A stretch of 64,000 nucleotides of DNA from the human T2T-CHM13v2.0 reference genome, Homo sapiens. A program made the position numbers and the translations under genes. Location of the stretch: NCBI RefSeq assembly GCF_009914755.1, contig NC_060938.1; one strand, 5' to 3'. Positions 26,763 to 55,969 of this stretch are shown in pieces (position 1 is the stretch's first letter; the number at the start of each line of letters is the position of its first letter). Under the pieces are notes generated by a model. It ran no database searches, was not told where the DNA came from, and saw only the letters and a program-made list of their open reading frames with translations.

Positions 26763-26910
26763 CAGAAAAAGAAAACTAAGAACTTCAATCCACCAACACG
26801 TAGAAATTGGGAAAGTAATTACTTTGGGATGCCCCTCCAGGATCTGGTTACAGCTGAGAAGCCCATACCACTATTTGTTGAGAAATGTGTGGAATTTATT
26901 GAAGATACAG
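26763..26910 (+). CDS. ARHGAP5: ARHGAP5 coding exon (148 nt), QKKKTKNFNPPTRRNWESNYFGMPLQDLVTAEKPIPLFVEKCVEFIEDT-G, start of RhoGAP domain
   Basis: Acceptor ttttcttatag|cag (tandem, alternative start 26766), donor CAG|gtagga; in frame with the previous exon; FG.PL and P.FV.KC.E RhoGAP motifs. Confidence 0.96.
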
Positions 26911-34619: not shown

Positions 34620-36413
34620 TGCTTTTTCTGAGGTGCAATTCATAAATAACATAAAACTAACCATTTTGAAATGTACAGTTCAGTGGCAGGTAGTATATTC
34701 ACAGTGTTGGATAACCACCACCTCATCTAGTTCCAGAACATTTTCATTTACCCCGAAGAAAACCCTGTACACATTAAGCAGTTATTTCTTATTTCCCCAC
34801 TACTCCAGTCCCTGGCAGTAACCAATCTGCTTTATGGCTCTCTGAATTTACTAATTCTGGATATTTCATATCAGTAGAATCACACAATGTATGACCTTTT
34901 CTTCTGCTTCTTAGCATTATTGTTTTGAGGCTCATCTGTGTTGTAACATGTATCATTATGTGTATATACATACATACATGCACACACATTTTGCTTTTTC
35001 AATCGTTTGGTGGACATTTGGGTTATTTCCACCTTTTGGCTATTGTGAACAGTCTGCTGTGAACATTCATGTGTACAACTATTCGTTCAAGTACCTGTTT
35101 TCAATTATTTTGGGTACCTAGGAGTAGAATACTGGATCATATGGTAATTCTGTGTTTAACTTCTTGAGGAACTGTCAAATTGTTTCCACAGTGGATGCAC
35201 CATTTTACTTCCCACCAACAATGTGTAAGGGTTCAAATTTCTCCATGTTGTTGCCAACACTTGTATGTGTTCTGTATGTGTATTAATTTTAGCTGTCTTA
35301 TCCCTTTTGATAAGGTTTCCTTTTAATCACTAAGTAGGTTACTTTGTCAGTATTGTGATTTTAGCAATATTAAGTCTTCGAATCCATGAATGTTTGATGT
35401 CTTTTTTATTTGTCTTTAATTTCTTTCAGTACCGTTTTGTAGTTTTCAGTGTTCAAGTCTTGCCTTGGTTAAATTTATTCCTAGGTATTTTATTGGAATG
35501 TTATTGTAAATGGAATTTAATTTAATTTTCATGTTTATGGATGTTTATGGTGGTGTGTAGAACTGATTTTTGTGTGTTGATCTTGTATCCTGAAATTTTG
35601 CCAAATTATTAGCTCTATTTTTTGTGTGTATTTGGGGGTTTTTATATATGTTTGTCTTCTGTGAATAGGGATACCTTTACTTTCAAATCTGAATGCTTTC
35701 TATTTCTTTGTCTTGCCTAATTGCTGTGGCTTGAACTTCCAGTGCAATGTTGAATAGCAGTTGTGAAAAGAGCACACGCTTGTCTTGTTCCTTATCTCAG
35801 GGGAAGCTTTTATTATTTCATCATGGAGTATGATATCAGCTGTGGGTTTTTTTTGTTTGTTTGTTTTTTTGAGATGGAGTCTCACAGTTCTGAACGCTAG
35901 AAGTCTGAAAGCAAGGTGTCAGCAGGGCCATGTTCCCTCTGAGACTCTAGGTAAACCTTCCTTGCCTCTTTCTTGCTTCTGGTGGTGGCTGTCAATCCCT
36001 GGTGTTCCATGGTTGGCAGCTGTATTACTACAATCTCTGCCTTTGGCATTCTCCATGTGCGTGCGCAGGTGTGTTTTCTCTTCTTTTCATAAGGACATCA
36101 GTCATATTGGGTTAAGGACCTCACCCTACTCCAATAATGACCACATCTTACCTTAACTAACTACATCTGCAATGATCTATTCCCAATAAGGTCACCTTCT
36201 AAGGTATTGGGGGTTAAGACTTCAACATATCTTTTTAGGACACAAAATTCAACTCATAATACCTTTCATTCCTAGTTTGTTGAGTGATGACAATGATTAT
36301 TATTATGAAAGGACATTGGATTTTATTGGATTATTTTTCTGTGTCAGTTGAGATAATCATGTTATTTTTCTTTTCTTTCATTTATTGATGTATTACATGG
36401 ATTGATTTTTCTT
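34620..36413 (-). mobile_element. L1MB-type element (3' end plus ORF2); continues at 38296-38525 after the SVA composite
   Basis: ttgaaatgtacagttcagtggc; ggatcatatggtaattctgtgtttaacttcttgaggaact; sequence joins across the SVA TSD. Confidence 0.8.
35880..36261 (-). mobile_element. MLT1C-like MaLR LTR, one end missing
   Basis: ctcacagttctg...aaggtgtcagcagggccatgttccctctg...aaggacatcagtcatattgg...gggggttaagacttcaacatatc. Confidence 0.85.
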
Positions 36414-36424
36414 TTTTTGGGGGG

Positions 36425-36605
36425 GGAGTAGTGAGCGTTTAATGGGTGCAGAGTTTCAGTTTTGCAAGATGAAAACAGCTCTGGAGATGGGTGGTAGTGA
36501 TGGATGCACAATATGAATGTACTTAATACCACTGAAGTGTACACTTACAAATGGTTAAGGTGGTAAATTTTATGTCATGTGTATTTTACCACAATAAAAA
36601 AAAAA
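36425..36605 (+). mobile_element. L1MB-type extreme 3' end (inside the SVA 3' transduction)
   Basis: tttaatgggtgcagagtttcagttttgcaagatgaaaa...aatggttaaggtggtaaattttatg...cacaataaaaaaaa. Confidence 0.85.
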
Positions 36606-36622
36606 TCAGGAAATATGATATC

Positions 36623-38010
<1,388 letters not shown>

Positions 38011-38295
38011 CTGGGCTCCCAAACAGGTTCATCCTCACACCAACTTGCAAGGGCGTGGCCCGCCTTGTCACCATGAGACCCTGAGAAAGTCCCTTCACCT
38101 CGCTGGGCTCTGGTTTCCTCATTCCAAGGATGGCTCTGCTATCTGCGTGTCGGCTATCGGTGCTGAGGCTGGCCCGCCTCTGCGTGGGCAGGATCTTGGC
38201 ATTCCTTTTGCTCCATGGACGCTGCCTCCCTGGGCTCGCCGCGCCTGGCCGCCCGGCAGGCAGCCCCAGGCCCCGGCTGCTCCATCCCGCTGCCC
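38011..38295 (-). other. GC/CpG-rich non-SVA segment fused to the SVA 5' end (5' transduction), includes a MIR-like piece at about 38065-38122
   Basis: Lies inside TSD tgatttttctt; composition unlike the AT-rich flanks. Confidence 0.75.
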
Positions 38296-39544
38296 TGATT
38301 TTTCTTATATTAAACCCCCTTGCATTCCTGGAATAAATGCTTTTGGGATTATGGTATATAATCCCTTTAATATGCTGTTAGATTTTATTTGCTAGTATTT
38401 TGTTGAAGACTTTTGCATCTATATTCATAAAAGATACTGGTCTGTTGTGTTTTCTTGTGGTGTTTTTGTCTGGCTTTAATGTCAGGATGCTACTGACCTC
38501 ATAGGAGTTAGGAAGTGTTTCTACTTTTAGAATGGTATATTTAATGACTGTGTTCCCTGGTTTTAAAAGTGCACTGTCTTCAGAATCTACTGAGGCATTC
38601 CTGTGTTAGAGACTTACGCTTTCTAAATTTTTTTCTGCATTTTTAGTTTTTCAGCCTCCTGCTTTATTGTCAGTATACCTCCTGCTGCTGTGTATCTCAT
38701 TTTTGCTTTTCTAGTTTGCAACTTCTAATCTGCTGTGAGTCAGGAAAACATATGGCAGAGTTAAATTGTGCTTTTGGTTAGGTTAGATAGAATCTGTGGA
38801 AAAACCCAAGGTGTTTCTCTTATAAGTAAATAATATATTTTAGTGGAAAGGCTTTGTGACATATTATTGGCTACTTGTAGTCCTTTCTGTTCCCATTTTT
38901 TTTTCAGTTATGCTAGAGTAGGTGATCAGGTGACCAAATTCCAGATAGCTGAGGTATTACTGTATTTGCCAGAATTTTTATTTGCATGTGGTTGCAGTTA
39001 ATCTGGAACGCCCCACTATGACAAATGAATTATAAAGAAATAGAGACTATCTTTAAAGCGTAGCAGTTATATTTTTGGTAAAAGTGGATTAGAAGGATAA
39101 ACATTAATAGCCTTCTCTGTATATTGGTCTAAAACTTGTGTTTTGTTTCACCACCCCAATATGGGATGAAAATGGATGAATGAATCTTTGTGTTATTGCT
39201 AAAGTAAATACAACTTCCTTAAGTAAAACCTTTTTGTTTAAACTTCAGCTTTCCCACTTGATGCTTTCAAGAACTCCCACTTTTTTTTTTTTAATCACTA
39301 CAACACTTTTTCACTAAATATCAATCCCTTGTTTCTCCTGCCCTACCTTGTCTGGATATTTCTCAATCCATTTTTATGTTCACTCCCTTGCATACTTCCT
39401 CGAAATTTCCACCATTTTATTCACTTGGCAAAACCTCAACTTTGGTTAAACCTCTGGTTACTCTGTGTTTGAACCAGAACAGGGGATATCATGGCTATAG
39501 AAAAACAAGCCATGCAGTTCACTTTGACTGTATGACCACACTTC

Positions 39545-55891: not shown

Positions 55892-55969
55892 GGTTATGTA
55901 CCGAAGGACTCTACCGTGTCAGCGGGAATAAAACTGACCAAGACAATATTCAAAAGCAGTTTGATCAAG
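55892..55969 (+). CDS. ARHGAP5: ARHGAP5 coding exon (78 nt), GLCTEGLYRVSGNKTDQDNIQKQFDQ, contains the arginine finger (CGT 55915-55917, R1297 counting from 293 with the proximal NAGNAG)
   Basis: Acceptor tttattctcttag|, donor AAG|gtaaga; EGLYRVSG RhoGAP catalytic motif; phase 1-1. Confidence 0.97.

What the first reader, a model, noticed from the sequence alone, without database searches (positions are those of the whole stretch)
38006..38295. Captured first-exon-like sequence: CpG-rich leader with a 43-codon ORF, then a MIR piece, then SVA
Seen (minus strand): the segment starts GGGCAGCGGGATGG; ORF 38285-38154 reads MEQPGPGAACRAARRGEPREAASMEQKECQDPAHAEAGQPQHR-stop with two ATGG starts. At 38122 it switches abruptly to MIR-like ATGAGGAAACCAGAGCCCAGCGAGGTGAAGGGACTT, where MIRs carry a cryptic acceptor (ttacag|atgaggaaac). 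It joins the SVA at GCTGGAGTGCAG, right after a CCCAG in the SVA Alu-like consensus. Inference: a spliced cDNA (host exon 1 + MIR exon + SVA-trapped exon) from a gene I cannot identify, now antisense within ARHGAP5 and possibly retaining promoter-proximal activity. A template switch at shared GCCCA is an alternative for the SVA junction.
Basis: partly seen in the sequence, partly recalled or inferred. Interest (0 to 1): 0.75.

Follow-up and report, generated by a model that had tools for sequence, protein, structure and literature searches.

The report
SVA that captured four LRRC8A exons
This is a fossil retrocopy of an aberrant LRRC8A transcript whose first four non-coding exons were spliced into an SVA retrotransposon sitting in the gene's intron, then copied into an ARHGAP5 intron; it is a clear example of a known mechanism and shows no sign of function.

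Summary
Window 38295-38006 (minus strand) is not one captured exon plus a MIR piece. It is four exons, each bounded by GT-AG in the source, from chr9 (C9:141086933-141097202, + strand). They lie 15-25 kb upstream of the LRRC8A coding exon, starting in a CpG island. Exon 4 is joined to the SVA directly behind the Alu-like AG acceptor (CCCAG|GCTGGAGTGCAG).

New here: about 370 bases after the SVA poly(A) (36788-36419) are a 3' transduction from the same LRRC8A intron, 2.2 kb downstream of exon 4. This stretch ends 19 nt after an ATTAAA signal in a short A-tail. The whole 1.9-kb unit is flanked by a perfect 11-bp target-site duplication.

So one chimeric LRRC8A-SVA read-through transcript was retrotransposed by L1. 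The source SVA is absent from chr9 in this assembly, where the Alu at that site is intact. No second copy exists in the genome.

Copy and source differ at 30 of 643 positions, so the event is old, probably 10 Myr or more.

The 43-codon ORF is a decay artefact. Its first ATG is ACG in the source, and its stop is a new C-to-T change. CpG loss is confined to the copy side (6 against 0), which argues against a lasting CpG-island promoter.

The mechanism is known. I did not find this instance in print.

The parts
38296..38306 (-). 5' copy of the target-site duplication AAGAAAAATCA (11 bp), inside an old L1 fragment
   Evidence: an identical 11-mer lies at 38306-38296 and at 36413-36403, directly flanking the unit.
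38295..38295 (-). Extra 5' G not present in the source (chr9 has C at C9:141086932). It fits reverse transcription of the mRNA cap, which would make this a full-length copy starting at the transcription start. This is an inference.
   Evidence: block A: the copy reads ...atcag|GGCAGCGGG and the source reads ...gcggcc|GGCGGCGGG.
38230..38294 (-). Trapped exon 1 (65 bases) = C9:141086933-141086997 (+). Donor in the source is CCCAG|gtgagt. It lies in the CpG-island peak upstream of LRRC8A.
   Evidence: 4 of 65 mismatches, all CpG-type; source 200-base windows have GC 0.67-0.745 and CpG o/e 0.76-1.04.
38123..38229 (-). Trapped exon 2 (107 bases) = C9:141090762-141090868. Source acceptor is ccttgtag|GGAGG and donor is TTGGG|gtaagg.
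   Evidence: 7 of 107 mismatches.
38067..38122 (-). Trapped exon 3 (56 bases) = C9:141096860-141096915, made from an ancient dispersed repeat (MIR-like; the name is recalled). Source acceptor is cattttacag|ATGAGGAAACC and donor is GTGAG|gtgggt.
   Evidence: five weak matches (80-86% over 50-64 bases) on other chromosomes, four of them spanning the acceptor.
38006..38066 (-). Trapped exon 4 (61 bases) = C9:141097142-141097202. Source acceptor is caccctag|AAGGCGG and donor is CCCAG|gtgaga. The last base is T in the copy and G in the source.
   Evidence: 1 of 61 mismatches, at the junction base.
37920..38005 (-). [quoted passage not shown] The hexamer repeat and about 330 bases of the Alu-like domain are missing.
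   Evidence: 27 of 29 other SVA copies read ...CCCAG just before GCTGGAGTGCAG, and all 29 continue upstream with Alu-like sequence..
37314..37919 (-). SVA VNTR, about 16 units of 37-40 bases
   Evidence: Tandem Repeats Finder.
36811..37313 (-). SVA SINE-R domain with the AATAAA signal at 36820-36815. The border with the VNTR is approximate.
   Evidence: 97-98% identity over 516 bases to the 39 other copies scored.
36789..36810 (-). SVA poly(A) merging with the A-rich linker of the chr9 Alu. The junction cannot be placed to the base.
36419..36788 (-). 3' transduction from the LRRC8A intron, C9:~141099403-141099758. It holds the right half of an Alu with its A-run (36788-36623), then an L1-3'-end-like stretch (36622-36419) with ATTAAA at 36443-36438. 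The last CCCC (36422-36419) has no counterpart on chr9.
   Evidence: 352 of 375 identical, E 1e-164; chr9 96%, next best genome match 81-87%..
36414..36418 (-). Remnant poly(A) tail (5 A), 19 nt after ATTAAA
36403..36413 (-). 3' copy of the target-site duplication AAGAAAAATCA

Best explanation
The stretch 38295-36414 (minus strand, about 1.9 kb) is one L1-mediated retrotransposition of a single chimeric RNA. An SVA once sat in sense orientation in the LRRC8A intron that follows the fourth 5' non-coding exon. It sat inside the A-rich linker of an Alu at about C9:141099387. Transcription started at the LRRC8A CpG-island promoter. Exons 1 to 4 were spliced normally, exon 3 being a MIR-like exonised repeat. 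[quoted passage not shown] This removed the hexamer and most of the Alu-like part. The transcript read through the SVA's own AATAAA and was cleaved about 370 nt further on, after an ATTAAA in the intron. L1 copied this RNA into an old L1 fragment in what is now an ARHGAP5 intron, antisense to that gene, and made an 11-bp target-site duplication. Shown: the four GT-AG-bounded blocks, the junction at the SVA acceptor, the 3' stretch from the same intron, the poly(A) signal and tail, and the duplication. Inferred: the former presence of the source SVA on chr9, the cap origin of the extra 5' G, and the age. The copy left no offspring.
For:: the 290 bases hit only themselves, four chr9 blocks in colinear order (query 2-67, 65-180, 174-228, 230-289) and one short repeat match on chr2. 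All 5 candidates were scored.

all four blocks end at canonical sites in chr9. Donors are CAG|gtgagt, GGG|gtaagg, GAG|gtgggt and CAG|gtgaga. Acceptors are ttgtag|, tttacag| and ccctag|.

a 754-aa open frame at C9:141111914 lies on the same strand, 15-25 kb downstream. It scores 1668 bits against PDB chains named LRRC8A, versus 1028 or less for LRRC8C and LRRC8D.

the 5' end lies in the CpG-island peak.

27 of 29 other SVA copies have AG directly before GCTGGAGTGCAG.

window 36802-36430 matches C9:141099387-141099758 at 352 of 375 positions (E 1e-164). That is 2.2 kb downstream of exon 4 on the same strand.

for the non-Alu part, chr9 is 96% identical. The next best of the 40 scored matches (3011 candidates) are 81-87%.

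ATTAAA lies 19 nt before the A-tail, and identical 11-mers sit at both ends.

the chr9 site holds an uninterrupted Alu.

Published mechanism: passages seen in PMC4859970, PMC6139936 and PMC12593883.
Against: No SVA is present at the inferred source site in this assembly, so the source element is inferred, not seen.

The exon 4/SVA junction reads CCCAT|GCTGG, not the CCCAG|GCTGG expected from a clean splice. It needs one later G>T change. One of the 29 other SVAs shows the same T.

Exon 4 and the SVA share GCCCAG at the junction, so microhomology-guided template switching would give the same product there.

Four C's at the 3' end of the transduced stretch have no counterpart on chr9.

I could not check whether exons 3 and 4 are annotated LRRC8A exons, because no chr9 annotation was on hand.

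I could not show that the two L1 flanks are contiguous in other L1 copies (inconclusive).
Confidence: 0.92

Rival explanations
1. Chimera made during reverse transcription. L1 reverse transcriptase started on a polyadenylated LRRC8A intronic RNA. It switched at the Alu A-rich linker to the poly(A) of an unrelated SVA RNA. It then switched again at GCCCAG to a spliced LRRC8A mRNA. No SVA ever sat in LRRC8A.
For: No SVA is at the chr9 site today. Both SVA borders lie in microhomology: an A-run at the 3' side and GCCCAG at the 5' side. The junction base does not match a clean splice. Template switching between an SVA and another RNA is reported in passages seen in PMC12593883.
Against: It needs two switches to two different RNAs of the same gene, from points only 2.2 kb apart. 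The second switch would have to land exactly at the last base of exon 4, where the genome continues with a GT donor, and exactly behind the SVA's AG. A single read-through transcript explains all of this at once.
Confidence: 0.05
2. Member of the known human SVA_F1 (MAST2 exon 1) subfamily, or offspring of another multi-copy 5'-transducing SVA group.
For: [quoted passage not shown]
Against: The leader maps to four exons upstream of LRRC8A on chr9, not to one exon. Nothing else in the genome carries it (all 5 candidates scored), whereas SVA_F1 is said to have at least 84 reference copies (PMC12593883). Divergence from the source (4.7%) is far above what a human-specific subfamily would show.
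Confidence: 0.01
3. The trapped CpG-rich leader still works as a promoter or start site, antisense inside ARHGAP5, as the MAST2 exon is reported to do in SVA_F1.
For: GC is 65% and 16 CpGs remain. The hub's table lists a RefSeq enhancer at 36745-37695 in the same SVA, over the SINE-R and VNTR but not the leader. The first exons trapped in SVA_F1 and pt_SVA_D6 are said to serve as internal promoters (PMC6139936).
Against: Only sequence downstream of the start site was copied. CpG o/e fell from 0.70 to 0.53. All 6 CpG-type changes in the leader are losses on the copy side and none are on the source side, as expected of germline-methylated DNA. No offspring copies exist.
Confidence: 0.08

Closest known systems
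SVA exon-trapping / spliced 5' transduction (Hancks et al. 2009 and Damert et al. 2009, both recalled and not held; review passage in PMC4859970; MRPS18A case in PMC12593883)
   Same: An intronic sense-oriented SVA captures upstream exons through an AG acceptor in its Alu-like domain. The chimeric RNA is then retrotransposed by L1 with a target-site duplication and a poly(A) tail.
   Different: Here four exons are carried, one of them a MIR-like exonised repeat. The cases whose passages I read carry one or two. A 3' transduction from the same intron is present as well, and the source SVA no longer exists in the assembly.
SVA_F1 (MAST2 exon 1 fused to SVA_F), human-specific subfamily
   Same: A GC-rich 5' leader of a host gene replaces the hexamer and most of the Alu-like domain. 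[quoted passage not shown] Here it lies a median of 350 bases after the first hexamer, measured in the 16 of 29 canonical copies in which a hexamer run was found. The published junction is at position 385 of the SVA_F consensus (PMC12593883).
   Different: The gene is different (LRRC8A), there are four exons, and it is a single copy with no amplification. It is also much older. I could not verify base by base that the acceptor is the one used in SVA_F1.
Chimpanzee pt_SVA_D6 (STK40 exon 1), some members with exons of 8 other genes (PMC6139936)
   Same: It is an independent capture of host exons by splicing into the SVA Alu-like region.
   Different: That is a lineage-specific family of 94 copies. 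This is a solitary copy in human.
Processed retrocopy (processed pseudogene)
   Same: It is an intronless copy of a spliced polymerase II transcript, with a poly(A) tail and a target-site duplication.
   Different: It carries no LRRC8A coding exon. The transcript ended in the intron after being diverted into the SVA.

Membership tests
L1-mobilised SVA insertion | VNTR, SINE-R, AATAAA and poly(A) in SVA order | tested here: met
L1-mobilised SVA insertion | CCCTCT hexamer repeat and complete Alu-like domain at the 5' end | tested here: not met
   the SVA starts at GCTGGAGTGCAG; in canonical copies this point lies a median of 350 bases after the first hexamer.
L1-mobilised SVA insertion | Target-site duplication, terminal A-tail and T-rich nick site | tested here: met
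   11 of 11 identical AAGAAAAATCA at both ends and an A5 tail. The inferred nick on the window + strand is TTTCTT/AT.
SVA exon-trapping 5' transduction | Non-SVA 5' sequence inside the duplication maps elsewhere as exons bounded by GT-AG | tested here: met
   four blocks with all donors GT and all acceptors AG.
SVA exon-trapping 5' transduction | Junction directly behind an AG in the SVA | tested here: met
   27 of 29 other SVAs have AG at that place. The copy itself now reads AT.
SVA exon-trapping 5' transduction | Source SVA in sense orientation in the intron downstream of the last trapped exon | tested here: inconclusive
   No SVA lies between exon 4 and the coding exon in this assembly. 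The 3' transduction places the former site 2.2 kb downstream of exon 4, and that site holds an intact Alu.
SVA_F1 (MAST2) | 5' leader is MAST2 exon 1, shared by many copies | tested here: not met
   the leader maps to chr9 upstream of LRRC8A, with no other copy.
CpG-island promoter | 200 bases or more, GC 50% or more, CpG o/e 0.6 or more (thresholds recalled) | tested here: not met
   the copy has 289 bases, GC 0.651 and o/e 0.53. The source exons have o/e 0.70.
Protein-coding ORF | Start and stop conserved with the source | tested here: not met
   the first ATG is ACG in the source, the stop is a new C>T, and the source has only a 25-codon upstream ORF.

The most novel reading that the evidence does not exclude
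The copy is a dated molecular fossil of two things that no longer exist or are not annotated. One is an SVA that sat in the LRRC8A 5' intron of an ape ancestor and diverted the gene's transcripts. The other is an LRRC8A 5'UTR isoform with a MIR-derived exon. In addition, the trapped leader together with the SVA would now act as an antisense regulatory element inside ARHGAP5, linked to the RefSeq enhancer call on the same SVA.
Probability: 0.1. Interest if true: 0.4.

Novelty: new member of a known kind. Interest (0 to 1): 0.27.

Why it matters
This is an unusually complete worked example of SVA-mediated exon shuffling. It has four spliced exons, the SVA, and a 3' transduction that pins the vanished source element to within a few bases. 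It shows that a retrocopy can record an extinct insertion and an old splice isoform.

There is also a practical point. The 282 unmasked bases next to the SVA are a near-copy of the LRRC8A 5'UTR. RNA, CAGE or methylation reads from LRRC8A can therefore mis-map to this ARHGAP5 intron and mimic an antisense promoter.

It does not change what is known about the mechanism.

Tried and rejected
(1) MAST2/SVA_F1 membership was rejected.

(2) A coding reading of the 43-codon ORF was rejected.

(3) I searched for the source SVA between exon 4 and the LRRC8A coding exon, and in the 7 kb upstream of exon 1. Only Alu-type matches and the 3' stretch turned up, and no VNTR or SINE-R.

(4) I searched for sibling copies with the same 3' stretch and found none among the 40 scored of 3011 candidates.

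(5) I tested whether the two L1 flanks are contiguous in other L1 copies. There was no match in the held data. The two genome searches (40 scored of 3309 and of 1879 candidates) shared no L1 copy, so the test is inconclusive.

(6) I tried to find SVA_F1 copies so as to compare the junction base by base. Pattern searches gave 7 and 20 hits. The 7 were Alus or SVAs with a variant base. Two of these were canonical SVAs and two were other 5' transductions. None was recognisably SVA_F1.

(7) Literature on this instance: searches for SVA+LRRC8A+retrotransposon (1 paper; by its listing it is on another subject, and I did not open it), ARHGAP5+SVA+retrotransposon (2 papers; neither is on SVA by its listing, and neither was opened) and LRRC8A+SINE-VNTR-Alu (0 papers). 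The two primary 2009 Genome Research papers and the 2010 review were not held. Their tables and supplements may list this element.

(9) I did not assign an SVA subfamily, because no consensus library was on hand and I built no consensus.

Full report
**Observation**

On the minus strand the segment begins GGGCAGCGGGATGG at 38295. It carries the 43-codon ATG ORF 38285-38154. It changes at 38122 to ATGAGGAAACCAGAGCCCAGCGAGG... and meets SVA sequence at 38005 with GCTGGAGTGCAG. Downstream follow an SVA VNTR (37919-37314, about 16 units of 37-40 bases), a SINE-R part, AATAAA (36820-36815) and an A-run.

**Where the 290 bases come from**

A search of the window's own genome found the segment itself, four blocks on chr9, and one 46-base match on chr2 to the repeat-derived part. 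All 5 candidates were scored. The four chr9 blocks are colinear and on one strand:

| Exon | chr9 coordinates (C9, + strand) | Length | Source splice sites |
|---|---|---|---|
| 1 | 141086933-141086997 | 65 | donor CCCAG\|gtgagt |
| 2 | 141090762-141090868 | 107 | acceptor ccttgtag\|GGAGG, donor TTGGG\|gtaagg |
| 3 | 141096860-141096915 | 56 | acceptor cattttacag\|ATGAGGAAACC, donor GTGAG\|gtgggt |
| 4 | 141097142-141097202 | 61 | acceptor caccctag\|AAGGCGG, donor CCCAG\|gtgaga |

Every border is a canonical splice site, so the chr14 segment is an intronless copy of a spliced RNA.

Exon 3 and its upstream intron give five weak matches (80-86% over 50-64 bases) on other chromosomes. That fits an ancient dispersed repeat. 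The name MIR rests on my recall of its consensus, not on a tool.

**Which gene**

A Pfam search for the LRRC8 pannexin-like domain found one chr9 locus, at C9:141111914 on the same strand. That is 15-25 kb downstream of the four blocks. Its 754-codon open frame scores 1668 bits over residues 1-720 against PDB chains named LRRC8A. It scores 1028 or less against LRRC8C and LRRC8D.

Exon 1 lies in the peak of a CpG island: 200-base windows have GC 0.67-0.745 and CpG o/e 0.76-1.04. The copy has one extra G at its 5' end where chr9 has C. This fits reverse transcription of the cap, which is an inference. The trapped exons are therefore the 5' non-coding exons of LRRC8A. I could not check whether exons 3 and 4 are annotated today.

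**The SVA junction**

After exon 4 the copy continues with GCTGGAGTGCAG. In 27 of 29 other SVA copies fetched from the genome, this sequence is directly preceded by ...CCCAG. One reads CCCAA and one CCCAT. All 29 continue upstream with Alu-like sequence. So the join lies directly behind an AG acceptor.

In the 16 of 29 copies where a perfect hexamer run could be found, the point lies a median of 350 bases after the first hexamer. [quoted passage not shown] I could not verify the identity of the site base by base.

The junction base itself is T in the copy (CCCAT|GCTGG), where a clean splice gives G. I take this as one later substitution.

Two other SVAs in this genome carry foreign sequence ending at the very same SVA position:
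- At C2:74132024, the foreign sequence comes from C1:151116847-151116948 (92%).
- At C17:44303955, it comes from C5:77461605-77461750 (99%).

These were 2 of the 4 loci I could cut out of 20 pattern hits. Their source borders were not examined.

The sequence after the SVA poly(A) is not chr14 sequence. Window 36802-36430 matches C9:141099387-141099758 at 352 of 375 positions (E 1e-164). That lies 2.2 kb downstream of exon 4, on the same strand.

For the part that is not Alu, chr9 is 96% identical. The next best of the 40 scored matches (3011 candidates) are 81-87%. The stretch is the right half of an Alu followed by an L1-3'-end-like sequence. It ends 19 nt after an ATTAAA (36443-36438) in five A's.

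The whole unit is flanked by identical 11-mers AAGAAAAATCA, at 38306-38296 and at 36413-36403. On chr9 the Alu is uninterrupted: its left half runs straight into ...TAAAAATACAAAAATTAGCCAGG, and there is no SVA.

**Mechanism**

The simplest account is one RNA.
1. An SVA sat in sense orientation in the A-rich linker of that Alu, in the LRRC8A intron.
2. A transcript from the LRRC8A promoter was spliced through exons 1-4 into the SVA acceptor.
3. It ran past the SVA's AATAAA and was polyadenylated after the ATTAAA.
4. L1 inserted it into an old L1 fragment in an ARHGAP5 intron, between the exons at 26763-26910 and 55892-55969 in the hub's table, antisense to that gene.

The splices, both junctions, the signals and the duplication are shown. 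The former SVA on chr9 is inferred. Its absence with an intact Alu suggests a source allele that was never fixed.

The rival is two template switches during reverse transcription. It fits the microhomologies: an A-run at one side and GCCCAG at the other. But it needs two RNAs of the same gene and a switch point that coincides by chance with a GT donor and an AG acceptor. I give it about 5%.

**Age and decay**

| Region | Mismatches | CpG-type | Gaps |
|---|---|---|---|
| Four exons | 15 of 289 | 6 | none |
| 3' stretch | 15 of 354 | 3 | 5 gap columns |
| Together | 30 of 643 (4.7%) | 9 | |

Without CpG-type changes the difference is 21 positions (3.3%). By my recall of ape genome divergences this is about the human-orangutan level. 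The event is therefore probably 10 Myr old or more, with a wide margin on 21 events.

The SINE-R part is 97-98% identical to the 39 other copies scored, of 2157 candidates. I did not assign a subfamily.

In the exons all 6 CpG-type differences are losses on the copy side and none are on the source side. CpG count fell from 23 to 16 and o/e from 0.70 to 0.53. The source island stayed protected, while the copy behaved like methylated DNA.

**The ORF**

In the source the first ATG is ACG, so the copy's ATG is a CpG transition. The stop of the 43-codon frame is a new C>T. The source has only a 25-codon upstream ORF starting at the second ATG. The ORF is a by-product of decay.

**What is known**

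Retrotransposition of chimeric transcripts with upstream exons spliced into SVA is established (passages read in PMC4859970). Examples:
- SVA_F1 with MAST2 exon 1, and chimpanzee pt_SVA_D6 with STK40 plus exons of 8 other genes (PMC6139936).
- A polymorphic MRPS18A case said to use the same acceptor as SVA_F1 (PMC12593883).

This locus is another, older and solitary instance. It stands out for carrying four exons together with a 3' transduction, and for a lost source.

Three searches of the held library did not turn up this instance. They returned 1, 2 and 0 papers, and I judged those returned by their listings only. The primary 2009 papers and their supplements were not held and may list it.

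**Verdict**

The mechanism is known, and I found no evidence of present function. Interest is modest.

Noticed in passing
G000 C2:74131880-74132060 (L074) and C17:44303810-44303990 (L076): Two other SVAs have non-SVA sequence ending exactly at the same GCTGGAGTGCAG position. One carries 102 bases from C1:151116847-151116948 (92%), preceded by an Alu piece. The other carries 146 bases from C5:77461605-77461750 (99%). They are possible further exon-trapping or 5'-transduction events at the same acceptor.
   Followed up: partly
window 36745-37695: The RefSeq 'enhancer' in the hub's table lies wholly inside this insertion. It covers the SVA SINE-R, part of the VNTR and the start of the chr9-derived 3' stretch. 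It does not cover the trapped exons.
   Followed up: no
window 36419-36422 (minus strand): Four extra C's lie between the end of the chr9-matching stretch and the A-tail. There is also a 3-base ACT duplication just before them. Neither has a counterpart on chr9 and the origin is unexplained.
   Followed up: no
G000 C4:109632135 (L045): A canonical SVA reads CCCAT instead of CCCAG at the acceptor. This is the same G>T as at the junction of the window's copy.
   Followed up: no
G000 C23:1080927 (L048): An SVA whose Alu-like sequence stops about 35 bases upstream of the acceptor and is preceded by unrelated sequence (AAATAGCTTGG...). It may be a 5'-truncated copy or another 5' transduction.
   Followed up: no
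window 38296-38700 and 36000-36413: The target is an old L1 fragment, with 75-81% identity to many genome copies. NCBI's masking leaves the trapped exons (38014-38295) unmasked, so they look like unique sequence.
   Followed up: partly
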